Assembly: GCF_000272005.1 (NCBI RefSeq)
Contig: NZ_AKKU01000025.1
Span: 67,493-91,492 of the forward strand
Reading direction: 5' to 3'
Source: Alishewanella agri BL06
GTDB lineage: Bacteria; Pseudomonadota; Gammaproteobacteria; Enterobacterales; Alteromonadaceae
DNA length: 24,000 bases
In this document: positions 10,477 to 19,228 of the stretch, in pieces
How the letters are laid out: each line of letters starts with the position of its first letter
Position numbering within the stretch: position 1 is the stretch's first letter
The notes under the pieces: model-generated
The model's database searches: none
Told to the model about the DNA's origin: nothing
The model's input: only the letters and a program-made list of their open reading frames with translations
Program-made: the position numbers and the translations under genes

Positions 10477-11178
10477 TTAAATACTGCTCACCCAGTCTGG
10501 CAAATAGTCAATTGCCCAGGTTTCCATGACTTTGTCAAAGCCAGTAAAGATCATCAGGGCTATCAGCAATAAAGCATAACCTAATAACTTGCGGCCAAAA
10601 CTACCAGAGCTGCGCAGCTTGCTAAGCTTTACGCCAGCAGCGTAGCCAATAGCAACCAAAGGCAAGGCAGTGCCTAAGCCGAATGCCAGCATTACACTGA
10701 ACGACATCAACATATTCTGGCCAGTTGATGCTAGCGCAATGGCGGCACCTAAAGTTGGGCCGACGCAAGGTAACCAAACCAGACCAAGCGAGCCGCCGAC
10801 CATAAACTGAAATGCCGGATGCTCGCTACTTTCATTAATCTGGCCACCGGCCGGTAAACGGCTGGTCAGGCGGGATAGCAGGTTTGAAAATTGCATCGAT
10901 AACCAATCAACGGTTAGCACCAAACCCATTGCCAGCATAAACCAAGCAGCAAAGGTGCGCATAATATCGGGTGATAGTCCTGCACTTAGCAGCAGGTATG
11001 TCAGCAGAGACCCGCCAATAGCGAAGGTAAGTGCTAAGCCGGCTGCTAAAAACCAGACACCAGAGCGCGATGCTCGCATCGCTGACGCTGTTACTGCCGG
11101 AATCATCGGCAGTACACAGGGTGAAAGCAGGCTTAATAAGCCTGCTAACAGCGCCAGAGGAATGGCGGTAAACTCCAT
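10477..11178 (-). CDS. Cytochrome c biogenesis CcdA / DsbD-beta-like thiol:disulfide electron transporter
   Basis: 233-aa polytopic membrane protein with the family hallmark LSPCVLPMIP near the N-terminus and a second Cys in LVWLPCVGPTLG. The start lies 2 nt after the upstream stop. Confidence 0.8.
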   Translation of the reverse strand: MEFTAIPLALLAGLLSLLSPCVLPMIPAVTASAMRASRSGVWFLAAGLALTFAIGGSLLTYLLLSAGLSPDIMRTFAAWFMLAMGLVLTVDWLSMQFSNLLSRLTSRLPAGGQINESSEHPAFQFMVGGSLGLVWLPCVGPTLGAAIALASTGQNMLMSFSVMLAFGLGTALPLVAIGYAAGVKLSKLRSSGSFGRKLLGYALLLIALMIFTGFDKVMETWAIDYLPDWVSSI

Positions 11179-11180
11179 GG

Positions 11181-11615
11181 TTAGTTCACACCCTTATCAT
11201 GCTCGCTTAAGGCAGCAAATAGTGGTTTTTGACGAGTTTCTGCAACGTTAAACCATACTTGTTGTTCGCCACGGTACAAGACTAAGGTCGATTGGCGCGG
11301 CGCTTTAAAATAGGTTACCCAATCTTTCTGGTTATCAAAATCGACCTCTAACACCAGAATTTCGCTGCTGGGATTGGCGGCAAAATAGTCGTTTAATACC
11401 TTGTGTTGCTTGCGGCACGTTGGGCACCAAGGGGCGAAAACGTCAATTAATACCAGCTTATTGTCCGCTTGCGCTTGGCGGAACACCTCTTCAGTAAAGG
11501 GTTGTTTATGCTTCGCCAGATGTTCGGCTGCAGCAGTAGCTGGATTAAAAAAGAATACAGCAGCCAAAATAGCCAGTACAGCAACACCAGCAGTGGTAAG
11601 GATTTTAATGTTCAT
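11181..11615 (-). CDS. Membrane-anchored or periplasmic thioredoxin-family protein
   Basis: 144 aa. N-terminal hydrophobic anchor MNIKILTTAGVAVLAILAAVFFF. Active-site FAPWCPTCRKQ (CxxC) in a thioredoxin-fold context. It sits directly upstream of and is coupled to the CcdA-like gene. Confidence 0.8.
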   Translation of the reverse strand: MNIKILTTAGVAVLAILAAVFFFNPATAAAEHLAKHKQPFTEEVFRQAQADNKLVLIDVFAPWCPTCRKQHKVLNDYFAANPSSEILVLEVDFDNQKDWVTYFKAPRQSTLVLYRGEQQVWFNVAETRQKPLFAALSEHDKGVN

Positions 11616-11728: not shown

Positions 11729-12649
11729 TTAGCTTTGCAGTGCCCGGTAGTCGCCGGGTGAAATGCCGTGTTGCTGCTTAAAAAAGCGGATAAAGGCAGT
11801 GGCTGATTGATAACCAACTTGTTCGGCGATGCGGTCTAAGCTTTGTTCGGTGTGGATCAGTAAGTAGCGGCTACGTTGTAAGCGTAGCGTATCGAGTAAC
11901 GCTTTGGCGGTAGCTTGCATCACTTTATGGCAACGTTCGGCAAAGGCACTTTTCGATAAAAATGCCAATGCTGCCATACTTTCCACTGTCCACTCCGCTT
12001 CGGGCTTGGCCATAATGGCTAGCACTACCCGGCGTAAAGCCGGATCTTTCAGAGCAGCCAGCATGCCCTGATTAATACTATCGTCGGTTAGCACCTGGCG
12101 TAGTAAGTGCAGCACTACTACGTCACTGAGTCGGCTGATCGCGGCCTGATAGCCGGGTTGGCGAGCTTTTGCTTCAGACTGAATGAGATTGATTAATGGC
12201 CCTAACTGGCCTTTTTGTGCGTGGGCCGGCAGATGAATATAATCGGGCATCACCTGAAATAAATTCGCGGTAAGTGGCGATTCAATACTGATATCGTAAC
12301 AAACCAGGCCACGCTCGAGATGTTCAGGGACACAGTAGGGCGCCAGTTCAACTCTCTGAGTCTGTTCGGTAACAGGTTGATCACTGAGCCAGTGTCGAAT
12401 GCTATGACTAAAAAAAATAGCATCACCGGCATGCAGCTGAATTTGCTCCTGCAATTTACCGGGAATGGCCATCCACAATGTGCCGGCCGTAACGACATGC
12501 AAAGCAGCTTTGTCTGACTTACTACTCAGCATATTCCAGTTATCGCAAAAGCCAGATTCAAAATGTAATTCTGACCCAAACGCCAATTGCCCCAGCAGCT
12601 GCTCCAGCGCTTCCGGTGTTTCAGTTGATAAGGGCGTTGTTTTGGTCAT
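11729..12649 (-). CDS. AraC-family transcriptional regulator with an N-terminal cupin-like sensor domain
   Basis: 306 aa. The C-terminal double HTH is ...SMAALAFLSKSAFAERCHKVM...SLDRIAEQVGYQSATAFIRFFKQQHGISPGDYR. The N-terminal half is cupin/AraC_N-like. It is divergent from the operon starting at 12805. Confidence 0.85.
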   Translation of the reverse strand: MTKTTPLSTETPEALEQLLGQLAFGSELHFESGFCDNWNMLSSKSDKAALHVVTAGTLWMAIPGKLQEQIQLHAGDAIFFSHSIRHWLSDQPVTEQTQRVELAPYCVPEHLERGLVCYDISIESPLTANLFQVMPDYIHLPAHAQKGQLGPLINLIQSEAKARQPGYQAAISRLSDVVVLHLLRQVLTDDSINQGMLAALKDPALRRVVLAIMAKPEAEWTVESMAALAFLSKSAFAERCHKVMQATAKALLDTLRLQRSRYLLIHTEQSLDRIAEQVGYQSATAFIRFFKQQHGISPGDYRALQS

Positions 12650-12804
12650 TGTCGGCCTAGGTTTGGATTTCTAAACTGTAATTGCATCTTTAGTCTACGG
12701 TTTGTGTCCCGGTTTGCAAACTCATATCTTTGTTAATAGTCAGAAGCAAGGCTTGGCTTACCAACAGCTGGTACGCCTGCTGCTGGTCACAGAGGAATGT
12801 CCGC

Positions 12805-13299
12805 GTGCTGGATAAAATATTAGAACAAAATAGACAACAGCTTGATGTTATCGATGCTATTTTGCGTCAGGTTAGTGCTGCCGATTATCAAAAAGTTCTG
12901 GCGCTACCTGGAGAGCCAAGTGTTGGCAAGCACGTACGGCATGTGTTGGGACATTATCAACAGCTGCAACAAGGGCTACAAACCGGGATGCTGGATTATC
13001 GCCAGCGTGAACGGCAACAGCTGATTGAAACAAACCCACTCGCCGCTTTAGGGTTGTTACAACAACAACTTGACTGGCTAGCAACATTAGCAGGCTGTGA
13101 AGCAATACCAATATTTCATTACCAGTGTGCTGAGGGAAAAGGTCATAGCTGTTTGCTACGGGAGCTGGATTTTGTTGCCAGCCATACTGTACATCATCTG
13201 GCAATATTACAGATTGTGCTATTGCAACTCGGCTACCAGCTGCCTGCCGAGGCAGGGGTGCATAGTTCAACCCTGGAGTATCGGCGATGTGCACCTTAA
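12805..13299 (+). CDS. DinB-superfamily (DinB_2-like) metal-dependent protein
   Basis: The track ORF starts at TTG 12730. I prefer GTG 12805 because AGAGGAA (12791-12797) lies 7 nt upstream and the preceding residues look non-coding. His-rich four-helix pattern: GKHVRHVLGHY ... SHTVHHLAILQ. The 3' end overlaps the next ATG by 13 nt. Confidence 0.6.
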   Translation: MLDKILEQNRQQLDVIDAILRQVSAADYQKVLALPGEPSVGKHVRHVLGHYQQLQQGLQTGMLDYRQRERQQLIETNPLAALGLLQQQLDWLATLAGCEAIPIFHYQCAEGKGHSCLLRELDFVASHTVHHLAILQIVLLQLGYQLPAEAGVHSSTLEYRRCAP

Positions 13300-14897
13300 G
13301 CTGGCAATACCGGGAAGACGGTTTACATTTGCTGTTTAATCGTGACGAGCAAATACAGCGTCCGGCGGCCCTGTTACCAGAGCGCTATCAGGAAAACGGT
13401 GTCACAGCATTAATGCCGCTTGATCCTGTGGCCGGTGGCAGTTGGCTGGCAGTTAATGAACTCGGACAAGTTTGGTGTCTGTTAAATGACTATACCAAAG
13501 GAAGTCGAGTGGCTACAGCAGGTTTATCCAGTAGGGGCATGTTGATTAAAGCACTGGCGCATATGTCAGCACGTCAGCAGCAAGATACCCTGCTACAGGT
13601 GGATAAACTGCAAGCCTATGCCCCCTTTAAACTGGTGTTATTTCAACAGCTGCAAGAGCCGATCGTCTGGCATTGGAATGGCCGTAGTCTAACGCAGCAT
13701 CTGGCAGTCCGCTCGCCCATCTCGAGCTCTAGCAAATTACCTGGGGTGATCCCAGCGTTACGGCGTTGGTACTGGCGGGCTAAGGTGAAAGACATAACCA
13801 GAGCTGCCGAGCTGCTGACTTTGCAGCGCAGTAGCAAACCAGTTAATGCTTTTTGTGGTTTGGCGATGCAGCGCAGCACCAGCCAGACCGTCAGTACCTG
13901 CTATCTGCACTGTGATGCCAACGGTGTCAATTTCCGTTATTGGCATGGACATCCCAATACTCAACAGGTGCAACCAGACACCAGCTTGCTGCTGACTTGG
14001 ACGACTGCTCTGCATTTGCAGCACAGTGGTTACCAGCCAATTGATTTACCGCAACTCGTTAAAAGCGCGGTGCCAGCTTTTGCGGCACGTCTTCGTCCCT
14101 GGCAGTGGTATGGATTACAGCATTGCCTTGCGCAGCGACAACTTAACCAGGCTTTACAGCAATTAAGTGCACAACCCGACCAACGATTCTGTGACAGCGC
14201 ACTGCAGTATTTGCGGGTGGAGCCGCAGTTAGTGGCTTGTCGCTGGCCCAGTGCAGAAAGCCGGCCGGTATTTGTCGCCAACCATCCGACCGGTGGTTTA
14301 GACGGGCTAATGCTGATCGCCTTACTGCAAAAACGTTATCCGAATTTACAGGTGGTGGCAAACGACTTGCTGCAAGCGATAGTGCCATTACAAGCTAATA
14401 TTTTGCCGGTGTCGGTATTTGGCAAGCCTGCCGCCGCTGTACCACAGCTGACAGCCGCTTTTGCTTCTGGTCAGCCGTTACTGATTTTTCCTGCCGGGCG
14501 CACAGCCCGGTTTAATGCGCAGCATCAGCTTGATGATGGGGTCTGGGCTAAACTGGCGATTACGCTATGCCGACGGGAGCAACGTAGTCTGACGTTAATC
14601 CATATCGATAGCCGCAATTCCCGGCTGTTTTATGCACTGGCGGCGCTCCGCCTGTGGTTTGGCATTAAGACAAATTTGGAGATGCTACTGCTAAGCCGGG
14701 AGATGTTAAAGCCGGCCGTGAAGCACCCCAAGATCTTTGTTGATGTGCCGATGCATCCGGTCGAACTTGATGCGCTGGCCGATACCGACCGGCAGCGGGC
14801 ACAGCGGCTAAAGCGCCGCGGTATGCAATTACCGATCTTATACAAGGAGCAACAGGATGCAGCAGGCTATACCTCTTGCGGCCGCAGTCGCGGCTGA
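13287..14897 (+). CDS. Fusion protein: N-terminal NRDE/TANGO2-family domain plus C-terminal PlsC-like lyso-lipid O-acyltransferase domain
   Basis: 536 aa. The N-terminus MCTLSW...LLFNRDEQIQRP...GGSWLAVNELGQVWCLLN...SSRGMLI is the NRDE (PF05742) pattern, including Cys2. The C-terminal half has VFVANHPTGGLDGLMLIALL (nt ~14278-14306), LLIFPAGRTAR and IDSRNSRLFY. These are typical of the acyltransferases encoded next to OlsB-like GNAT N-acyltransferases. Confidence 0.75.
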   Translation: MCTLSWQYREDGLHLLFNRDEQIQRPAALLPERYQENGVTALMPLDPVAGGSWLAVNELGQVWCLLNDYTKGSRVATAGLSSRGMLIKALAHMSARQQQDTLLQVDKLQAYAPFKLVLFQQLQEPIVWHWNGRSLTQHLAVRSPISSSSKLPGVIPALRRWYWRAKVKDITRAAELLTLQRSSKPVNAFCGLAMQRSTSQTVSTCYLHCDANGVNFRYWHGHPNTQQVQPDTSLLLTWTTALHLQHSGYQPIDLPQLVKSAVPAFAARLRPWQWYGLQHCLAQRQLNQALQQLSAQPDQRFCDSALQYLRVEPQLVACRWPSAESRPVFVANHPTGGLDGLMLIALLQKRYPNLQVVANDLLQAIVPLQANILPVSVFGKPAAAVPQLTAAFASGQPLLIFPAGRTARFNAQHQLDDGVWAKLAITLCRREQRSLTLIHIDSRNSRLFYALAALRLWFGIKTNLEMLLLSREMLKPAVKHPKIFVDVPMHPVELDALADTDRQRAQRLKRRGMQLPILYKEQQDAAGYTSCGRSRG

Positions 14898-15759
14898 GTC
14901 AATGCAGGCTGAGTTAGGCGGGTTAACACCGTTGGCGACTTTCCGAGGGCTACTTATTTTTAGTACCGATGCGTCGGATATCCCCAGTACAATGCAGGAG
15001 ATCGGCCGGATCCGCGAAGCGGTATTTCGCCAGGCTGGCGCGGGGCGCAACCTGCCACGGGATCTTGATGATCTGGATTACACTGCACCTGCTTACCAGC
15101 AGTTACTGGTTTGGGATCCTGAGCGACTGCAACTGGTCGCCATGTATCGCTATCAATTGGGGTGGTTGGCGGCCGATGCGGGGCTACACATTTTACGGAC
15201 CAGTCAATTATTTAGGTATAGCGAGGCTTTTCGTGCTCAGGTCTTGCCTTACGCTATTGAATTAGGCCGCTCGGTGGTGAATCCAGCTGCTGCGGCACAT
15301 ACGCTTGGTTTTTTTGCGCTTTGGCTGGGTTTAGGAGCGTTATTGCGTCGGCATCCGCGATTGCAGTATTTTTTTGGTAATGTGACGCTGTACCCGCAAC
15401 TGGGAGAGGTGGCGATGCAGCATATAGTGCAGTTTTGCCAGCAGCTATATCCACCGCCAGAGCCAATGCTACAGGCGTTGCCAGAGTTGCTTTATCGCAG
15501 TAAGCCGATGATGGTTGACGCTGAATTATTGCATGCCGCTCCCTCAGAGCGGATTAAAGCACTTCAATACAGTTTACAGGCATTGCACTGTCGGATCCCA
15601 CCAGTGCTCCAGTCGTATTTAAGTGTTGGCAACGGCATTTGGTTTGATGACGCCGCGCTGGATCTCGATTTTGGAGCCGCATACGAGCAAAGCATTATCG
15701 TCCCCCTTCACGCGTTAAGTCATGCCTTTCGGCAACGTTTTCTTGATTGTCAGCTATAA
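14857..15759 (+). CDS. GNAT-family N-acyltransferase of the OlsB / N-acyl amino acid synthase type (Acetyltransf_5-like, 'putative hemolysin' COG)
   Basis: 300 aa. AAGGAG at 14844-14849 precedes the ATG. IGRIREAVFRQAGAG...DLDDLDY...QLLVWD...LVAMYRY...IELGRSVVNP...FALWLGLGALL...YFFGNVTL follows the OlsB-like pattern (R-x-x-VF, D-x-D-x-D/Y, YR, ELGR). It overlaps the upstream ORF by 41 nt. Confidence 0.7.
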   Translation: MQQAIPLAAAVAAESMQAELGGLTPLATFRGLLIFSTDASDIPSTMQEIGRIREAVFRQAGAGRNLPRDLDDLDYTAPAYQQLLVWDPERLQLVAMYRYQLGWLAADAGLHILRTSQLFRYSEAFRAQVLPYAIELGRSVVNPAAAAHTLGFFALWLGLGALLRRHPRLQYFFGNVTLYPQLGEVAMQHIVQFCQQLYPPPEPMLQALPELLYRSKPMMVDAELLHAAPSERIKALQYSLQALHCRIPPVLQSYLSVGNGIWFDDAALDLDFGAAYEQSIIVPLHALSHAFRQRFLDCQL

Positions 15760-15772
15760 CAGGAGAAATATC

Positions 15773-16309
15773 ATGCAGCACTTTCCAATACTTGACCGCG
15801 ATAGCGCCCCGGCACAAAGCCAGACCTTACTGGATGCTACCGCCAAAACGATGGGCCGGGTACCAAACTTATTCGCCGTTATGGCGGCTGCGCCTGGCTT
15901 ACTGGCCGGCTACCAGCAGTTGCATCAGTTGGTGATGGAGAACAGCTTTAATGCCACGGAAAAAACCGTGGTTTGGCAAACCATTAACTTAGAACATGGC
16001 TGTCATTATTGTGTGCCGGCACACGCTGCTATTGCGGCCATGCTTAAGGTAGAGCCCGCTATAGACCAAGCTTTGCGGCAGCGGCAACCGTTACCGGAGC
16101 CGCTGGCTAGTTTGCAGCACTTTACGCAGTTAATGGTGCAACAGCGCGGTCAGGTCAGCGAGCAGGATGTGGCGCAGTTCCTGAGCGCGGGCTATCAGCC
16201 GCGGCAGGTGCTGGAAATTGTGCAAATGATTGCACAAAAGGTGATGAGTAATTACACCAATCACCTGGCGCAAACGCCGCTGGATGAAGCTTTTAAAGCT
16301 TTTGCGTAA
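15773..16309 (+). CDS. Carboxymuconolactone decarboxylase (AhpD-like) family protein
   Basis: The track ORF starts at 15722. ATG 15773 follows AGGAGA (15761-15766). The AhpD-type active-site segment is LEHGCHYCVPAH (CxxC plus His). About 178 aa, all-helical. Confidence 0.8.
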   Translation: MQHFPILDRDSAPAQSQTLLDATAKTMGRVPNLFAVMAAAPGLLAGYQQLHQLVMENSFNATEKTVVWQTINLEHGCHYCVPAHAAIAAMLKVEPAIDQALRQRQPLPEPLASLQHFTQLMVQQRGQVSEQDVAQFLSAGYQPRQVLEIVQMIAQKVMSNYTNHLAQTPLDEAFKAFA

Positions 16310-16370
16310 TTGACAACGCAGGTTACAACATTGAGACTGAAGACTATCTCATCTAAGGTTAAAATGACGC

Positions 16371-16976
16371 ATGTTAAGTTACTTACAGGACAAACGCCTC
16401 ACTTTACAAAGTGGCACTGCCTTGCCGGCGGCGCAGTCTATACTGCAGTTAGCCGGGCAGGGTGAGCTTGAGGTGACGCTCAATCCCGAGCCTGATGCCG
16501 CTGCCGTGCTGGCAGCGATAGCGCAGGCTTATCAGGATGGCTATGAGCAGCAGGCGTCAACCGAGTTTGAACTGCAAGGTATTGCTTTTGCCGGCAGTGG
16601 CGATCCTTTGTTGGCACTGGAGCTGCTATCACAAGTATTACCGGCTTTTAAAGCACAGCGCCATGGTGTGCCGGTTACGCTGGTGACCTATGGCCTGGTG
16701 CTGGCTGCAGAGGCAGAGCAGCTATGCCAGCAGTTAGTGGCGCTGGAAGTCGAGCGGCTGGAAATCTATTTTCCGGCTGCGAATCCACCGGCCTATCAGC
16801 AGGCGGTACAGCCACAGCAATACGGCTTTGCCGAAGTGTGTCAGTTTATCCATACTGCCGCCGAAGCGGGATTACAGGTCAGTTGCTTTGCTTATGCCCC
16901 GGTAAAACAGGCTAGTGAAATTCGGGCGCTGGCCAAAGAGTTGGGGGCGCGGGATTTTCAGATCCTCAGTACCTAA
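16371..16976 (+). CDS. Hypothetical protein with radical-SAM-like core motifs but no CxxxCxxC cluster
   Basis: 201 aa. FAGSGDPLL resembles the radical-SAM GGEPLL motif. VTLVTYGL, LEIYFPAANPPAYQ and AAEAGLQVSCFAYAP...EIRALAKELGA follow the usual downstream strand pattern. The first ~70 aa contain no cysteine. Confidence 0.45.
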   Translation: MLSYLQDKRLTLQSGTALPAAQSILQLAGQGELEVTLNPEPDAAAVLAAIAQAYQDGYEQQASTEFELQGIAFAGSGDPLLALELLSQVLPAFKAQRHGVPVTLVTYGLVLAAEAEQLCQQLVALEVERLEIYFPAANPPAYQQAVQPQQYGFAEVCQFIHTAAEAGLQVSCFAYAPVKQASEIRALAKELGARDFQILST

Positions 16977-17049
16977 AGTACCTAAGTTTATAGCACCGCT
17001 CGATCACGTCACCCGTTGTCATCATTAAGCTCGGTGGATAGTGTTATAC

Positions 17050-17092
17050 AATAACAATTTTGCAATTGACATTGAGAATCGATCTCATTAGC
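17050..17092 (+). promoter_or_regulatory. Candidate Fur box / iron-regulated promoter upstream of the TonB-dependent receptor
   Basis: AT-rich segment AATAACAATTTTGCAATTGACATTGAGAATCGATCTCATTAGC. By hand alignment, GAGAATCGATCTCATTAGC matches the 19-bp Fur consensus GATAATGATAATCATTATC at about 12/19 positions. TGAGAATCGATCTCA is nearly palindromic. The location and the downstream iron-uptake genes fit, but the match is weak. Confidence 0.3.
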
Positions 17093-17119
17093 ATTGCCCT
17101 TCTTTTTTATGAGGGTGCC

Positions 17120-19228
17120 GTGCGATACTTTAAGTTAACGTCGATTAGTCTGGCTTTATTATCCTGCAATCTGCTGGCTGCGGCAGAAACCGTAACTGAG
17201 CAGCAGGAGCCGTCAGCGGATAAAGCGAAGGATTATGTTGAAACCATAGAGGTGATTGGCCGTTTTACCGGTAAAACCTTTTCGGAATACAGTTATTCTG
17301 CGACCAAAATTGCAGCTGATGTGTTAGATATTCCACAATCGATTAGCGCGGTCACCAAAGAGGTGATTAAAGATCAGGCGATGATGCGCCTGAACGACAT
17401 ATCGCCTTTTATCAGCGGCGTTAACGAATTTTCAGTCTATAACGATATTACGATCCGTGGCTTTCGTAACTCAGACGACCGTCGGGTCAATGGTATGCGT
17501 ACCTACAATGACTTTTGGTCGCAATCGGTGATTTCGCATGTTGAGCGGGTAGAAGTGATCAAAGGGCCGGCATCGGCTATCTTTGGGGATGCCAGCCCGG
17601 GCGGCACGGTAAACATCGTGACAAAAAAGCCGTTGGCTGAGCGTCGTAATGAAATCAGTGCGCGTTACGGTAGCTACAAAGATCGTTATGTGGCGCTGGA
17701 TACCACTGGTCCGGCGAATCAGGGTGCTTCCTTGTTATACCGGTTTAATCTCGGGTACGAGAATTCTGACTCATTCCGGGAGCAAATCTTTAATGAGAGT
17801 TTATTGGCCTCGCCTAGCATTACCTGGTTAGCTAACGATAAAACCACCATCAACCTCGAACTGGTTTACGCGGATACCAAAGGTATTCTTGACCGTGGCC
17901 AACCTAATGTGCGTAACGCTTCAGCACTGGGAGTAGTGCCCATTAATGTATCGGTTACCCAGCCCGGCGATAAAATGGATACTGAGTCGTTAACCAGCAG
18001 CCTGGCGATTGATCATAAGCTAACCGATGGTTGGACAGCGGTATTCAATTACATGCATCAGGATTATGACCAGAAGTTGGTTGAGCACCGCATTCGCAAC
18101 TATGTTACCGGTTCTGATTCTGTTATTAATCTGCTGTATGTTGATCGTGATGAGTCGGCAACAGTCGATAATTTCTCTGGCTACATCACTGGTTTGTTTC
18201 AGCTTGGCGGTATCAGCCAGAGCCTGGTGGCTGGTATAGATTACGTTGGCCGCTCTTATCATTCAGCGCAGCTGCGGGCAAATAATGTTGGCACCTTTGA
18301 TATTCTGCAACCAGAGTATCGGCCTAGAGATCCTGCTACCTACAGTGCTACTGCTGATGCTCCCTGGGGCGGCGACTTTAAGAGTACCGGGTATTACCTG
18401 CAAAATCAGATGGATCTGGGCGATTGGTCGCTGTTGCTGAGCTTACGCAGTGAGCACTACGACATTATTGATACTGATGGCTTTGGAGCCAAAGATAATG
18501 CGCTGTTACCAAGGGTCGGGGTGGTTTATCGCCTGTCGCCGCAATCCAGTTTGTATGCCACCTGGGTTACCGGCTTTGAGCCACAGGATTTATTCGCTAA
18601 TAACCCACAAAGTGGTGGCCCTTTTGATCCGCAAGACAGCGAGTTAAAAGAAATTGGTTTTAAAACCAAGCAATTCGATGACAAGTTACTGTTAACGTTA
18701 TCAGCGTATGAAATCACCAAAACCAATATTATTTTATACGATGAAGAAGCGACGCAGGCCGCAAATGACGGCTTTGACAAATACCGGCAGCGTGGCGAAG
18801 AGCAGGCGCGCGGTTTTGAGTTGGAGCTAAATGGTCAGCTTAGCGAGCAACTGCAGCTGATCGCCAACTATGCCTTTAACCGCGCCAAAATTACCGAAGA
18901 TACCAACGCAGCCCTGGTTGGTCTGGCGAAAGAGGGGGCCCCAAAACACAGTGCAACCTTGTGGGCTAAGTATCAGTTGAGTGATCGTTGGTCGACCGGT
19001 GCCGGTGTTACCTACGTGGGAGAGCGTCGCACTTTCGAGGAGGCCCTTGAGCTACCGTCATACCGCTTGTTTAGTGCCGCCTTGTACTACAAAGCGACCG
19101 ACTGGGATGCCGCACTGCAAGTTCGTAATATTACGGATGAAGTGCACTGGACCGGCGGTTATAACTTCGGCCGGATTTTCCCCGGCGATCCGCGCTCAGC
19201 CAGTTTGACCTTTAGCTACCGCTTCTAG
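17120..19228 (+). CDS. TonB-dependent siderophore/metallophore outer-membrane receptor
   Basis: The track ORF starts at TTG 17060. I prefer GTG 17120 (GAGGG at 17111-17115), which gives VRYFKLTSISLALLSCNLLAAA/ET as signal peptide. TonB-box-like ETIEVIG. Plug motifs IRGF and RVEVIKGPASAIFG. A long beta-barrel ending in ...SLTFSYRF with terminal Phe. Confidence 0.9.
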   Translation: MRYFKLTSISLALLSCNLLAAAETVTEQQEPSADKAKDYVETIEVIGRFTGKTFSEYSYSATKIAADVLDIPQSISAVTKEVIKDQAMMRLNDISPFISGVNEFSVYNDITIRGFRNSDDRRVNGMRTYNDFWSQSVISHVERVEVIKGPASAIFGDASPGGTVNIVTKKPLAERRNEISARYGSYKDRYVALDTTGPANQGASLLYRFNLGYENSDSFREQIFNESLLASPSITWLANDKTTINLELVYADTKGILDRGQPNVRNASALGVVPINVSVTQPGDKMDTESLTSSLAIDHKLTDGWTAVFNYMHQDYDQKLVEHRIRNYVTGSDSVINLLYVDRDESATVDNFSGYITGLFQLGGISQSLVAGIDYVGRSYHSAQLRANNVGTFDILQPEYRPRDPATYSATADAPWGGDFKSTGYYLQNQMDLGDWSLLLSLRSEHYDIIDTDGFGAKDNALLPRVGVVYRLSPQSSLYATWVTGFEPQDLFANNPQSGGPFDPQDSELKEIGFKTKQFDDKLLLTLSAYEITKTNIILYDEEATQAANDGFDKYRQRGEEQARGFELELNGQLSEQLQLIANYAFNRAKITEDTNAALVGLAKEGAPKHSATLWAKYQLSDRWSTGAGVTYVGERRTFEEALELPSYRLFSAALYYKATDWDAALQVRNITDEVHWTGGYNFGRIFPGDPRSASLTFSYRF

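What the first reader, a model, noticed from the sequence alone, without database searches (positions are those of the whole stretch)
13287..14897. NRDE/TANGO2-family domain fused in-frame to a lyso-lipid O-acyltransferase
Residues 1-~235 (MCTLSW..., LLFNRDE, GGSWLAVN, SSRGMLI) form an NRDE/TANGO2 (PF05742) domain with the N-terminal Cys2 typical of an Ntn-hydrolase-like nucleophile. Residues ~290-520 form a PlsC-like acyltransferase of the type encoded next to OlsB-like N-acyltransferases. Its catalytic motif ANHPTGGLDG has five residues between H and D, against four in the classical H(X)4D. The biochemical function of TANGO2 proteins is unresolved, with published proposals including haem mobilisation and acyl-CoA/lipid homeostasis. 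A covalent fusion to an acyl-chain-transferring enzyme inside a lipid-biosynthesis operon is Rosetta-stone evidence for an acyl-thioester or lipid-related role. I am not aware of this architecture being characterised.
Basis: partly seen in the sequence, partly recalled or inferred. Interest (0 to 1): 0.7.

Follow-up and report, generated by a model that had tools for sequence, protein, structure and literature searches.

The report
TANGO2-like domain fused to aminolipid acyltransferase
A bacterial relative of the human disease protein TANGO2, whose biochemical job is still disputed, is here permanently joined to an enzyme that adds a fatty acid to a membrane lipid, and related bacteria keep the two genes side by side, giving a testable clue that TANGO2-type proteins work in lipid acylation.

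Summary
ORF 13287..14897 (+) encodes a 536-aa protein. Residues 1 to about 238 form a complete TANGO2/NRDE Cys-Ntn domain; residues about 252-512 form a GlsA/OlsF-N-type lyso-aminolipid O-acyltransferase.

The gene sits between a DinB-like gene and a GlsB-like N-acyltransferase gene, and all three overlap.

The fusion is not an artefact. About 30 protein clusters, down to 31% identity, share the architecture in Alteromonadales, Oceanospirillales, Ectothiorhodospiraceae and Balneolales. The putative catalytic residues of both halves are conserved.

These are OlsF-type or OlsB/OlsA-type, and they occur in several phyla.

The H(X)5D spacing is real, but it is normal for the whole GlsA/OlsF family.

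No searched paper links TANGO2/NRDE to aminolipids. The sequences are in databases only as "NRDE family protein".

The mechanism is unproven. My best reading (about 0.35) is that the NRDE domain handles the fatty-acyl thioester donor for the O-acylation step. This parallels human TANGO2's acyl-CoA binding and the high LPA and low PA seen when it is lost. The main rival is an amidase or transacylase acting on the N-acyl bond.

Interest is high, because it makes TANGO2 biochemistry testable in bacteria.

The parts
11729..12649 (-). AraC-family regulator with a Cupin_6 sensor domain, divergently oriented; candidate regulator of the operon
   Evidence: Pfam Cupin_6 (E 7e-32), HTH_18 and HTH_AraC. 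The same gene sits at the same place in the Alishewanella, Alkalimonas and Arsukibacterium loci L001-L003 and in L081 (cluster c18). The regulatory role is inferred from position only.
12805..13299 (+). c1: DinB/YfiT-fold putative metalloprotein (164 aa from the probable GTG start at 12805; the mechanical ORF starts at TTG 12730). Its stop overlaps the fusion's start by 13 nt.
   Evidence: Weak Pfam DinB_2 hit. Invariant H68, H71, H152, H155, H156 and R70, R95, R144, E145 in ORF numbering. AF2 model pLDDT 89. Best folds are DinB/YfiT structures 2f22, 2qe9, 3dka and 1rxq. Found directly upstream of NRDE in 47 of 80 loci. The 13-nt overlap is identical in 17 loci of several phyla. The 164-aa gene call comes from the 97% relative.
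13275..13278 (+). Shine-Dalgarno GGAG, 8 nt upstream of the fusion's ATG and inside the 3' end of c1
   Evidence: Read directly from the sequence.
13287..14897 (+). Fusion gene: TANGO2/NRDE Cys-Ntn domain joined to a GlsA/OlsF-N-type lyso-aminolipid O-acyltransferase (536 aa)
13287..14000 (+). NRDE/TANGO2 domain (aa 1 to about 238), a complete alpha-beta-beta-alpha Ntn fold
   Evidence: PF05742 over aa 1-133. Full-length alignment to standalone NRDE proteins of about 240 aa. Foldseek best hits are human TANGO2 9bwa and 8sv7 (E about 1e-9), then acyl-CoA:isopenicillin N acyltransferase, penicillin V acylase, bile salt hydrolases and acid ceramidase.
13290..13292 (+). Cys2 codon: the putative N-terminal nucleophile once Met1 is removed
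   Evidence: Present in 21 of the 22 aligned fused proteins; the exception looks N-terminally truncated. Invariant in the alignment with standalone relatives and human TANGO2. Corresponds to the Cys2 proposed as nucleophile in the human crystal structures. No upstream in-frame start exists.
13338..13349 (+). N18-R19-D20-E21, the NRDE motif
   Evidence: R19, D20 and E21 are invariant from the fused proteins to human TANGO2. The human sequence used was verified as identical to 8sv7. The motif is required for acyl-CoA binding by human TANGO2.
14001..14039 (+). Short interdomain linker (aa 239-251), predicted ordered
   Evidence: pLDDT is about 90 across aa 231-260, and pTM for the whole protein is 0.88. 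One Balneolales variant (605 aa; L022, P0033) carries an insertion of tens of residues here.
14040..14822 (+). O-acyltransferase domain (aa about 252-512), GlsA/OlsF-N type (PF19576)
   Evidence: PF19576 at 101 bits. The NCBIfam GlsA model aligns over positions 2-262 of 267 at 155 bits, below the 260-bit cutoff, and OlsF positions 5-262 also align.
14280..14306 (+). N332-H333-P-T-G-G-L-D339-G340: catalytic His/Asp motif with H(X)5D spacing
   Evidence: N332, H333, P334, G336, D339 and G340 are invariant in the fused family. The same NHPxGxx[D/E]G occurs in all seven OlsF-like proteins checked, while OlsA-like neighbours have NH(X)4D.
14487..14510 (+). F401-P-A-G-R-T-A-R408: second acyltransferase block, the counterpart of FPEGT in PlsC-type enzymes
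   Evidence: F401, P402, G404, T406 and R408 are invariant or nearly so. The motif appears as FPAGE in OlsF-like and FPEGTS in OlsA-like neighbours.
14845..14849 (+). Shine-Dalgarno AGGAG, 7 nt upstream of the GlsB-like ATG and inside the 3' end of the fusion gene
   Evidence: Read directly from the sequence.
14857..15759 (+). GlsB/OlsF-C-type amino acid N-acyltransferase (300 aa); overlaps the fusion gene by 41 nt
   Evidence: PF13444. NCBIfam GlsB at 174 bits (cutoff 300) and the OlsF C-terminal half at 153 bits. Immediately downstream of the fusion in L001-L003, L017, L022, L025 and L081.

Best explanation
**What it is (high confidence, about 0.9).** This is a genuine, conserved bifunctional protein of an Alishewanella-like gammaproteobacterium. 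It lies in a translationally coupled three-gene operon: a DinB-like metalloprotein, then the NRDE::O-acyltransferase fusion, then a GlsB-like N-acyltransferase. The operon builds an acyloxyacyl aminolipid, meaning an ornithine- or glycine-lipid-type membrane lipid. The head-group amino acid is unknown.

**Steps inferred from family knowledge.**
1. The GlsB-like enzyme N-acylates an amino acid with a 3-hydroxy fatty acid, giving a lyso-aminolipid.
2. The C-terminal domain of the fusion (H333/D339 dyad) esterifies a second fatty acid onto the 3-hydroxyl group.

**Step that is my hypothesis (about 0.35).** The N-terminal TANGO2/NRDE domain serves that O-acylation step by handling the fatty-acyl thioester donor.
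- After Met1 is removed, Cys2 becomes the N-terminal nucleophile of a Cys-Ntn active site.
- That site either binds acyl-CoA or acyl-ACP, or is transiently S-acylated, as in acyl-CoA:isopenicillin N acyltransferase.
- It then presents the acyl chain to the tightly packed acyltransferase domain.
- The nucleophile must be at the protein's N-terminus, which explains why the NRDE domain always comes first.
For: **Shown here.**
- The ORF, its domains and its motifs.
- A complete Ntn fold whose closest match is human TANGO2, followed by acyl-CoA:isopenicillin N acyltransferase.
- The catalytic set C2, R19, D20, E21, N67 and R159 is invariant from fused proteins to human TANGO2. So the domain is probably an enzyme rather than a passive module.
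- About 30 fused clusters reach down to 31% identity, and every one has NRDE at residue 1.
- The two-domain model is confident (pTM 0.88) with an ordered linker, which suggests a fixed interface.
- Shine-Dalgarno sites lie inside the overlapping gene ends.
- Independent neighbourhood link: 32 of 80 NRDE loci carry aminolipid acyltransferase genes within 7 kb. These are 11 fused, 7 OlsF-type, 13 OlsB+OlsA-type and 1 with an N-acyltransferase only, and they occur in several phyla. Random placement would give well under 1%.
- Other recurrent neighbours are membrane or lipid proteins (VTT/DedA, alpha/beta-hydrolase/thioesterase).

**From the literature.**
- Purified human TANGO2 binds C16 and C18:1 acyl-CoA, and this needs the NRDE motif (PMC11867700).
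- Loss of TANGO2 raises lysophosphatidic acid and lowers phosphatidic acid (PMC10042531, abstract). From my own knowledge, LPA-to-PA conversion is catalysed by a PlsC-superfamily lyso-lipid O-acyltransferase. That is the same kind of step as the one fused here.
- The crystal structures propose a Cys2 Ntn enzyme acting on fatty-acid derivatives (PMC13044924 and PMC12359130).

**From my own knowledge (a precedent).** E. coli Aas joins a PlsC-type lyso-lipid acyltransferase to the domain that supplies its activated acyl donor.
Against: - No experiment exists for any fused protein, and I could not obtain model coordinates, so the distance and path between Cys2 and His333 are unknown.
- Characterised Cys-Ntn enzymes mostly cleave or form amide bonds. 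The pathway intermediate is an N-acyl amide, which fits the rival at least as naturally.
- The most constant partner of NRDE is the DinB-like c1 (47 of 80 loci), not an acyltransferase. 48 of 80 loci show no aminolipid gene within 7 kb, although many of those contigs are short.
- Balneolales fused genes lack both c1 and a nearby N-acyltransferase gene.
- The acyl donor of GlsA/OlsF-type enzymes has not been established, so a need for a donor-handling domain is assumed.
- The domain is only 19% identical to human TANGO2 in the multiple alignment (13-14% in the structural alignments), so transfer of the human acyl-CoA data is by homology only.
- The only bacterial homologue studied, HtpA, was assigned to heme trafficking.
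Confidence: 0.4

Rival explanations
1. The NRDE domain is an amidase or transacylase acting on the N-acyl amide bond of the lyso-aminolipid or aminolipid, as in bile salt hydrolase, penicillin V acylase, NAAA or acid ceramidase. It would either proofread or recycle dead-end N-acyl amino acids that cannot be O-acylated, or move the N-acyl chain to another amine and so exchange the head group.
For: - The fold and catalytic residues match Cys-Ntn amide hydrolases and N-acyltransferases.
- The structure papers note that these enzymes cleave non-peptide amides, and that bile salt hydrolase also has amine N-acyltransferase activity.
- The product of the adjacent GlsB-like enzyme is exactly such an N-acyl amide.
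- Many neighbourhoods look like aminolipid synthesis-plus-modification islands, with ATP-grasp, Rieske/ferric-reductase-like and oxidoreductase genes.
Against: - A hydrolase that undoes the N-acyltransferase product is an odd partner to weld rigidly onto the enzyme that consumes that product.
- In all fused forms the partner is the O-acyltransferase, never the N-acyltransferase.
- It does not explain the human acyl-CoA binding or the LPA/PA imbalance.
Confidence: 0.25
2. c1 plus NRDE is a self-contained two-protein module whose substrate is not the aminolipid acyl chains. It might act on a head-group precursor, a thiol or metal-dependent metabolite, or another membrane lipid handled together with the VTT/ATP-grasp proteins. 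Under this view, fusion and clustering with aminolipid genes reflect shared regulation or a shared membrane-stress response, not consecutive chemistry.
For: - c1 and NRDE are the most conserved pair (47 of 80 loci), and the 13-nt overlap is identical across phyla.
- c2 (VTT with or without ATP-grasp) occurs in 35 loci, more often than aminolipid genes.
- DinB-fold enzymes are typically metal- and thiol-dependent, and the c1 fold search also returned distant, non-significant similarity to mycothiol-dependent enzymes and EgtB/OvsA N-terminal domains.
- A YHS-domain (seleno)protein lies between NRDE and OlsF in Vibrio and Alteromonas.
Against: - A covalent fusion with an ordered linker, kept down to 31% identity, is hard to explain by co-regulation alone.
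- Balneolales fused genes have no c1 next to them, so NRDE can work with the acyltransferase without c1 in cis.
- The window contains no VTT, ATP-grasp or YHS gene.
Confidence: 0.15
3. The NRDE domain is a heme-binding or heme-trafficking module like S. oneidensis HtpA, unrelated to acyl chemistry.
For: HtpA (SO0126), an NRDE/DUF833 protein, was reported to bind heme and aid cytochrome c maturation (PMC10470608).
Against: - Nothing heme-related is fused or consistently adjacent in the 80 loci.
- The crystallographic work found heme binding to human TANGO2 to be non-specific.
- A cross-species study challenges the heme role (PMC12782551, abstract).
- Strict conservation of the Ntn catalytic residues argues for catalysis.
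- HtpA has a different gene context, with a metal transporter as neighbour.
Confidence: 0.04
4. The fusion is an assembly or frameshift artefact joining two separate genes.
For: None found.
Against: Uninterrupted fused ORFs occur in independent isolates and MAGs of many genera, from 97% to 31% identity, with conserved length (523-556 aa, plus 598- and 605-aa insertion variants).
Confidence: 0.01

Closest known systems
Human TANGO2 (PDB 8sv7, 9bwa) and the NRDE/DUF833 family PF05742
   Same: - Same alpha-beta-beta-alpha Ntn fold; it is the best PDB match.
- Same Met-Cys start, NRDE motif and aligned putative catalytic residues: C2; N25/R26/D27/E28 = N18/R19/D20/E21; N75 = N67; G89 = G84.
- Proposed to act on fatty-acid derivatives or to bind acyl-CoA.
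   Different: - 19% identical in the multiple alignment (13-14% in the structural alignments).
- Human TANGO2 is a free-standing mitochondrial protein; here the domain is covalently joined to a lipid acyltransferase.
- The human Asn157 position aligns with a Ser-rich stretch (SSSS) in the bacterial subfamily.
- No biochemical data exist for the bacterial form.
GlsA/GlsB of Bacteroides (glycine lipid synthesis) and bifunctional OlsF (ornithine lipid synthase)
   Same: - The C-terminal domain aligns over the whole GlsA model and the N-terminal half of OlsF. The downstream gene aligns over GlsB and the C-terminal half of OlsF.
- Same NHPxGxx[D/E]G and FPAG motifs.
- Same two-step logic of N-acylation followed by O-acylation (review PMC12971839).
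   Different: - Scores are below the equivalog cutoffs (155 against 260; 174 against 300; 118 and 153 against 620), so the head group cannot be assigned.
- Gene order is O-acyltransferase then N-acyltransferase as separate genes, unlike OlsF, where the two are fused.
- There is an extra N-terminal NRDE domain and a coupled DinB-like gene, neither described for GlsBA or OlsF.
Acyl-CoA:isopenicillin N acyltransferase (PDB 2x1d) and other Cys-Ntn enzymes (penicillin V acylase, bile salt hydrolase, NAAA, acid ceramidase)
   Same: Second-best structural matches (E about 1e-7 to 1e-5). They use an N-terminal Cys nucleophile and act on acyl amides. The isopenicillin enzyme also takes acyl groups from acyl-CoA through an acyl-enzyme, which is the chemical precedent for the proposed S-acyl-Cys2 intermediate.
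   Different: - Roughly 8-16% identity.
- Many of those enzymes (for example the isopenicillin N acyltransferase, NAAA and acid ceramidase) expose their Cys by autoproteolysis of a propeptide, whereas here Cys is residue 2.
- None is known to be fused to a PlsC-superfamily acyltransferase.
- Activity here is untested.
E. coli Aas (2-acyl-GPE acyltransferase / acyl-ACP synthetase); own knowledge, with NF006386 appearing as a weak hit for OlsF-like neighbours
   Same: A lyso-lipid O-acyltransferase domain is fused to a second domain that provides the activated acyl donor. This is the architectural analogy behind the best explanation.
   Different: The partner domain in Aas is an adenylate-forming acyl-ACP synthetase at the C-terminus, not an Ntn domain at the N-terminus. 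This is an analogy, not homology.
S. oneidensis HtpA (SO0126), the only bacterial NRDE protein studied experimentally
   Same: Same family (DUF833/NRDE); cytoplasmic.
   Different: It is standalone, sits next to a metal-transporter gene, and was assigned to heme trafficking. No lipid genes are reported near it. Whether it belongs to the subfamily analysed here was not tested.

Membership tests
TANGO2/NRDE (PF05742) | Profile match above Pfam's gathering score | tested here: met
   50.1 bits against 22.6, over aa 1-133. phmmer aligns aa 1 to about 225-240 with full-length standalone members.
TANGO2/NRDE (PF05742) | Met-Cys N-terminus and the N-R-D-E motif | tested here: met
   MCTLSW and F17-N18-R19-D20-E21. 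They are conserved in the fused family and up to human TANGO2. There is no alternative upstream start.
TANGO2/NRDE (PF05742) | Four-layer alpha-beta-beta-alpha Ntn fold resembling solved TANGO2 | tested here: met
   The AF2 model has pLDDT 87.6. The best Foldseek PDB hits are 9bwa and 8sv7, with E 9e-10 to 7e-9 and probability 1.0.
TANGO2/NRDE (PF05742) | Acyl-CoA binding that depends on the NRDE motif (shown for human TANGO2) | not testable with these tools
   Needs purified protein. The reference is PMC11867700.
Cys-Ntn hydrolase superfamily | Free N-terminal Cys nucleophile with aligned Arg/Asp, Asn and Arg/Lys catalytic residues | tested here: inconclusive
   The residues align (C2, R19, D20, N67, R159) with those named in PMC13044924. 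Removal of Met1 and catalysis cannot be shown computationally.
GlsA/OlsF-N-type O-acyltransferase (PF19576 Acyltransf_2) | Profile match above the gathering score, with the NHPxGxx[D/E]G and FPAG blocks | tested here: met
   101.3 bits against 27. The motifs are invariant in the fused family and shared with seven OlsF-like proteins.
GlsA equivalog (NF053697, lyso-glycine lipid O-acyltransferase) | Score at or above NCBI's equivalog cutoff | tested here: not met
   155.3 bits against a cutoff of 260, although the alignment spans model positions 2-262 of 267. It is GlsA-like, but cannot be called GlsA.
Classical PlsC/LPLAT acyltransferase (PF01553) | H(X)4D catalytic motif and a profile match above the gathering score | tested here: not met
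   22.7 bits against 23. The spacing is H(X)5D, whereas the OlsA-like neighbours in other loci have NH(X)4D. It is a sister family within the same superfamily.
OlsF (NF052615, bifunctional ornithine lipid synthase) | A single polypeptide with the O-acyltransferase N-terminal and the N-acyltransferase C-terminal, scoring at or above the cutoff | tested here: not met
   The two halves are separate genes here, scoring 117.8 and 152.7 bits against 620.
GlsB equivalog (NF053696) for the downstream gene | Score at or above the equivalog cutoff; PF13444 domain | tested here: inconclusive
   PF13444 is met (36 bits against 22.4). The GlsB model scores 174.5 bits against 300. It is an N-acyltransferase of this type with unknown amino-acid specificity.
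Acyloxyacyl aminolipid biosynthesis operon | Adjacent, co-oriented N- and O-acyltransferase genes | tested here: met
   The two genes overlap by 41 nt, with an internal Shine-Dalgarno site. The same pair occurs in L001-L003, L017, L022, L025 and L081.
Acyloxyacyl aminolipid biosynthesis operon | Production of an aminolipid | not testable with these tools
   Needs lipidomics. A literature search for polar-lipid data on these genera found nothing usable.
DinB/YfiT superfamily (for the coupled gene c1) | Four-helix bundle with a conserved His triad | tested here: met
   Invariant H68, H152 and H156, plus H71 and H155. The AF2 model has pLDDT 89. Foldseek best matches are 2f22, 2qe9, 3dka and 1rxq, with TM 0.6-0.74. 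The Pfam DinB_2 score is below the cutoff (21.3 against 24.8).

The most novel reading that the evidence does not exclude
TANGO2/NRDE proteins are, across life, Cys-Ntn acyl-enzymes that take a fatty acyl group from acyl-CoA or acyl-ACP onto Cys2 and feed it to PlsC-superfamily lyso-lipid O-acyltransferases. The bacterial fusion and operons would then be the ancestral, hard-wired form of the partnership whose loss in humans causes the high lysophosphatidic acid and low phosphatidic acid of TANGO2 deficiency disorder.
Probability: 0.2. Interest if true: 0.9.

Novelty: new variant of a known kind. Interest (0 to 1): 0.72.

Why it matters
- **An open question with clinical weight.** TANGO2 deficiency is a severe human metabolic disease, and the protein's molecular function is openly disputed. 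The candidates are heme trafficking, acyl-CoA binding, and an Ntn hydrolase with unknown substrate.
- **Independent evidence from genomes.** A conserved covalent fusion, plus repeated operon linkage in several phyla, points to one specific kind of reaction: O-acylation of a lyso-lipid by a PlsC-superfamily enzyme. That is the step implicated by the lipid imbalance in patient cells.
- **A practical test system.** Three small genes can be expressed in E. coli, the lipid read-out is simple, and point mutants of Cys2 and the NRDE motif are easy to make.
- **Relevance to bacterial membranes.** It adds an undescribed component, along with a DinB-like partner and VTT/ATP-grasp neighbours, to aminolipid pathways. 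The 2026 review of the field contains none of the terms TANGO2, NRDE, DinB, DedA or ATP-grasp.

Tried and rejected
- **Locus search with the human sequence included.** The alignment had no block conserved enough to search with. I rebuilt it without the human sequence.
- **Sequence-profile search of the PDB with the fused family.** No hits.
- **Structure prediction of c1 using locus-derived sequences.** I redid it with database homologues.
- **Link to the V. cholerae vca0649-0646 operon.** A V. cholerae-labelled assembly has c1, NRDE, YHS and an OlsF-like gene in that order. The published primers for VCA0646/0649 do not match it, and the Tn-seq paper gives no annotation. I report this as an unverified lead.
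- **Exact look-up of the window protein.** Not on record. The organism was inferred from relatives at 97% and 95% identity.
- **Single versus multiple origin of the fusion.** NJ places all fused domains in one subfamily, with standalone proteins nested among them. The question is unresolved.
- **Promoter and terminator scan of 12500-17200.** Nothing above the shuffled expectation.
- **Literature on polar lipids of Alishewanella, Alkalimonas and Arsukibacterium, and on ACT14924/PF19576.** Nothing usable.
- **Special catalytic significance of H(X)5D.** Rejected, because it is the norm for the family.

Full report

Yes. The window contains an ORF at 13287..14897 (+) of 536 aa. ATG 13287 is the first possible start after the upstream stop, so the product must begin Met-Cys.

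Pfam assigns aa 1-133 to TANGO2 (PF05742; 50.1 bits, cutoff 22.6). It assigns aa 272-500 to Acyltransf_2 (PF19576; 101.3 bits, cutoff 27). The classical PlsC family PF01553 scores just below its cutoff. NCBIfam aligns aa 252-510 to almost the entire GlsA model (lyso-glycine-lipid O-acyltransferase) and to the N-terminal half of OlsF.

The Pfam TANGO2 match covers only half of the profile, but the domain is complete. In an exhaustive phmmer search, aa 1 to about 225-240 align end to end with standalone NRDE proteins of about 240 aa. An AF2 model built from 22 homologues is confident (mean pLDDT 87.6, pTM 0.88). Its best PDB matches are the two human TANGO2 crystal structures. After those come acyl-CoA:isopenicillin N acyltransferase, penicillin V acylase, bile salt hydrolases and acid ceramidase.

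**2. Is the fusion genuine?**

The database search found about 30 clusters (at 90% identity) with both domains in one protein of about 530 aa. They range from 97% to 31% identity. Named sources include Alishewanella, Alkalimonas, Arsukibacterium, Salinispirillum, Natronospirillum and a Cyclonatronaceae MAG.

In species-representative genomes, 11 of the 80 loci retrieved have an uninterrupted fused ORF of 529-605 aa. These also include Ectothiorhodospiraceae and several Balneolales MAGs. A 97%-identical relative (GCA_037445495.1) has the same gene order.

Across this divergence the putative catalytic residues of both halves are invariant or nearly so:
- NRDE half: M1, C2, T3, W6, F17, N18, R19, D20, E21, D46, G51, N67, S82, R83, G84, V202 and S203.
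- Acyltransferase half: N332, H333, P334, G336, D339, G340, F401, P402, G404, T406 and R408.

An alignment with standalone bacterial NRDE proteins and human TANGO2 keeps C2, R19, D20, E21, N67 and R159 invariant. These positions correspond to the human residues proposed as the Cys-Ntn catalytic set (Cys2, Asn25/Arg26/Asp27, Asn75, Lys166 region) in PMC13044924.

Every fused protein has the NRDE domain starting at residue 1. That is what an N-terminal-nucleophile enzyme requires.

**3. The operon in the window.**

Three genes overlap:
- **c1, a DinB-like gene.** The probable start is GTG 12805 and the stop is at 13299. It overlaps the fusion's start by 13 nt, with a GGAG 8 nt before the ATG.
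- **The fusion gene,** 13287..14897.
- **A GlsB/OlsF-C-type N-acyltransferase gene,** 14857..15759. It overlaps the fusion's end by 41 nt, with an AGGAG 7 nt before its ATG.

The N-acyltransferase carries PF13444. It aligns to GlsB and to the C-terminal half of OlsF, but below the equivalog cutoffs, so the amino-acid head group cannot be named.

An AraC/Cupin_6 regulator lies divergently upstream, and it is syntenic in the close relatives. The organism is an Alishewanella species; c1 is 95% identical to that of strain BS5-314.

**4. Evidence beyond the fusion: gene neighbourhoods.**

I clustered all ORFs in the 80 NRDE loci and identified the recurrent families.
- **c1.** The most constant neighbour is the DinB-like c1, directly upstream of NRDE in 47 loci. 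The identical 13-nt overlap occurs in the window and in 17 loci from several phyla. c1 has invariant histidines typical of the DinB metal site and a confident DinB/YfiT-type fold. No specific function can be assigned.
- **VTT/DedA-domain proteins.** These are the second most frequent neighbour. They often carry a RimK-like ATP-grasp domain, and in a planctomycete an alpha/beta-hydrolase/thioesterase domain.
- **Aminolipid acyltransferase genes.** This is the point most relevant to the finding. A census using HMMs built from the loci shows such genes within 7 kb of NRDE in 32 of 80 loci:
  - 11 fused loci.
  - 7 with an OlsF-like bifunctional gene: two Vibrio, Alteromonas, Psychromonadaceae, Bryobacteraceae, Solibacteraceae and Opitutales.
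  - 13 with an OlsB-like plus classical OlsA-like pair: Thermoanaerobaculia, Blastocatellia, Gemmatimonadota, Planctomycetota, Kiritimatiellia and Verrucomicrobiota.
  - 1 with an N-acyltransferase only.

That is 21 of 69 standalone loci. A window of about 14 kb in a genome of several megabases would contain such a gene by chance in well under 1% of cases. Because many contigs are short, 30% is a lower bound.

Typical operons are:
- OlsB-like, OlsA-like, c1, NRDE, VTT protein.
- VTT, c2, c1, NRDE, YHS protein, c5, OlsF-like.

The link between NRDE and aminolipid synthases therefore recurs with three different synthase architectures. This is much stronger than a single Rosetta-stone fusion.

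Caveat: the 80 loci are the relatives closest to the window's domain, out of 139 confirmed. The statement therefore holds for this NRDE subfamily, not for all 3221 NRDE clusters detected.

**5. Origin of the fusion.**

In an NJ tree of 240 NRDE domains, one bipartition contains 46-47 of the 47 fused domains. It also contains 16-19 nested standalone proteins, from Marinobacter, some Balneolia MAGs and unnamed clusters.

The fusion is therefore confined to one subfamily. Whether it arose once, with later fission or loss and horizontal transfer, or several times is unresolved.

Several Balneolales fused genes have neither c1 nor an N-acyltransferase gene nearby.

**6. The H(X)5D point.**

The motif ANHPTGGLDG does have five residues between His and Asp. 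All seven OlsF-like proteins examined have the same NHPxGxx[D/E]G. The OlsA-like PF01553 neighbours have the classical NH(X)4D.

The spacing is a family trait of the GlsA/OlsF lineage. It says nothing specific about this protein.

**7. How it most likely works.**

Two steps are inferred from family knowledge (review PMC12971839):
1. The GlsB-like enzyme makes an N-(3-hydroxyacyl) amino acid.
2. The C-terminal domain of the fusion esterifies a second fatty acid onto the 3-hydroxyl group.

For the NRDE domain I favour handling of the fatty-acyl thioester donor. This could be by binding alone or through a transient S-acyl-Cys2 intermediate. The reasons are:
- The intact catalytic set argues for chemistry rather than scaffolding.
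- After TANGO2 itself, the closest structural relative is an enzyme that takes acyl groups from acyl-CoA through a Cys acyl-enzyme.
- Human TANGO2 binds C16 and C18:1 acyl-CoA in a manner that depends on the NRDE motif.
- Loss of human TANGO2 raises lysophosphatidic acid and lowers phosphatidic acid. From my own knowledge, LPA-to-PA conversion is catalysed by a PlsC-superfamily lyso-lipid O-acyltransferase. That is the same kind of step as the one fused here.
- The fusion partner is always the O-acyltransferase, never the N-acyltransferase.
- The high pTM and the ordered linker suggest a fixed two-domain machine.
- E. coli Aas offers a precedent for fusing a lyso-lipid acyltransferase to its acyl-donor supplier (own knowledge).

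I put this at about 0.35. The identity of the locus as an aminolipid operon with a genuine NRDE fusion I put at about 0.9.

**8. Rivals.**
- **Amidase or transacylase (about 0.25).** Characterised Cys-Ntn enzymes mostly cleave or form non-peptide amide bonds, and the pathway intermediate is such an amide. The NRDE domain could proofread, recycle or re-head N-acyl amino acids. Against this, it is an odd partner to weld onto the enzyme that consumes that intermediate, and it does not explain the human data.
- **Independent c1-NRDE module (about 0.15).** The module might act on something else, such as a head-group precursor, thiol or metal chemistry, or another membrane lipid together with the VTT/ATP-grasp proteins. 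This is supported by the fact that c1 and VTT proteins accompany NRDE more often than acyltransferases do. It is weakened by the rigid fusion and by fused genes that lack c1.
- **Heme trafficking as for HtpA (about 0.04).** Nothing in these loci supports it, and recent structural and genetic work disputes it.
- **Artefact (about 0.01).** Excluded (section 2).

**9. Novelty.**

The proteins are in public databases, but only as "NRDE family protein", "Transport and Golgi organisation 2" or "putative acyltransferase".

Full-text searches found nothing relevant:
- No paper combines TANGO2/NRDE with ornithine, glycine or other aminolipids, or with OlsF.
- Neither crystal-structure paper mentions a fusion or fused protein; 'bacteria' occurs only twice in one of them, in the passages I saw for the comparator bile-salt hydrolase, and 'acyltransferase' in the passages I saw refers to the isopenicillin N acyltransferase or to bile-salt-hydrolase activity.
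- The HtpA paper does not mention an acyltransferase.
- The 2026 aminolipid review does not mention TANGO2, NRDE, DinB, DedA, ATP-grasp or fusions.
- There is no comparative-genomics paper on DUF833/NRDE.

Both domain families are known. The combination, and the wider link between NRDE and aminolipid genes, appear undescribed. I therefore rate it a new variant of a known kind.

**10. Verdict.**

The mechanism remains open, but it can be tested directly. Interest is 0.72.

Noticed in passing
window 12805-13299; L001-L082 (for example L043:6438-6986, L041:6443-6994): A DinB/YfiT-fold protein (c1) lies directly upstream of NRDE in 47 of 80 loci. Its stop overlaps the NRDE start by exactly 13 nt in the window and in 17 loci of several phyla. 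It has an invariant histidine cluster and its function is unknown. It is probably a physical partner of bacterial TANGO2 homologues.
   Followed up: partly
L041:4700-6421, L054:7754-10204, L063:7159-10386, L082:3666-5376: VTT/DedA-domain membrane proteins recur next to NRDE in 35 loci. They are often fused or adjacent to a RimK-like ATP-grasp domain, and in a planctomycete also to an alpha/beta-hydrolase/thioesterase domain. The aminolipid review says the ATP-dependent taurine transferase of ornithine lipids is still unidentified, so this ATP-grasp is a candidate head-group ligase.
   Followed up: partly
L041:7705-8646, L044, L048, L039, L082:6761-7201: In Vibrio, Alteromonas and Psychromonadaceae, a YHS-domain (seleno)protein (NF041384) and, in most of these loci, a 150-aa protein with no family hit lie next to the OlsF-like gene: between NRDE and OlsF in Vibrio and Alteromonas (L082 has only the YHS gene), and upstream of OlsF in L039.
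   Followed up: no
L082 (assembly GCA_036903875.1, labelled V. cholerae): The gene order is VTT, 375 aa, c1, NRDE, YHS, OlsF-like. This resembles the published four-gene vca0649-0646 operon, whose last gene is a validated ornithine-lipid synthase. That operon is HapR-activated, and overexpressing vca0646 with vca0647 causes cell death. The published primers do not match this contig, so whether vca0648/0649 are NRDE and c1 is unverified.
   Followed up: partly
L042:1899-3600, L058:12137-13856, L049:4980-6791, L037, L061, L067, L074, L078: Genes for a Rieske plus ferric-reductase-like transmembrane protein and an unassigned protein of about 250 aa sit beside the OlsB/OlsF genes in Acidobacteriota and Gemmatimonadota. 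They may be aminolipid-modifying oxygenases.
   Followed up: no
loci L002-L006, L012, L017, L022, L023, L025; proteins P0004-P0034: Fused forms come overwhelmingly from alkaliphilic or soda-lake taxa and MAGs: Alkalimonas, Arsukibacterium, Natronospirillum, Salinispirillum, Cyclonatronaceae, and contigs named CSSed, T1Sed, B1Sed and PBR18. My reading of those sample names is from memory. This could reflect habitat-linked horizontal transfer or a role of the lipid at high pH.
   Followed up: no
window 15722-16309 and 16371-16976: An AhpD/CMD-like peroxidase-related gene overlaps the end of the GlsB-like gene by 38 nt. It is followed by a short (201 aa) protein with only weak radical-SAM-like matches. 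Both are kept in the 97% relative (L081); in L001-L003 they were not detected as conserved ORF clusters, though L001 has a similar-sized ORF at the corresponding position that I did not compare.
   Followed up: partly
window 10477-11615 (-): A DsbD_TM/CcdA-like membrane protein and a thioredoxin-like protein form a pair next to the AraC regulator. The thioredoxin-like gene is syntenic in Alishewanella, Alkalimonas and Arsukibacterium, and the DsbD_TM-like gene in Alishewanella and Alkalimonas (clusters c17 and c27).
   Followed up: no
L022:7001-8818; P0033 (alignment A1, columns about 255-300 and 385-408): One Balneolales lineage (a 605-aa ORF in locus L022 and the 598-aa database protein P0033) carries insertions of tens of residues between the NRDE and acyltransferase domains. 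The linker therefore tolerates expansion in at least one lineage.
   Followed up: no
L015, L018-L020, L024, L029, L031, L036, L052: Oceanospirillales (Amphritea, Neptunomonas, Litoribacillus) have a fixed seven-gene array with no acyltransferase within 7 kb. The order is YHS protein, c5, an unassigned 280-aa protein with weak ATP-grasp-like hits, an ATP-grasp protein, an MFS transporter, c1 and NRDE.
   Followed up: no
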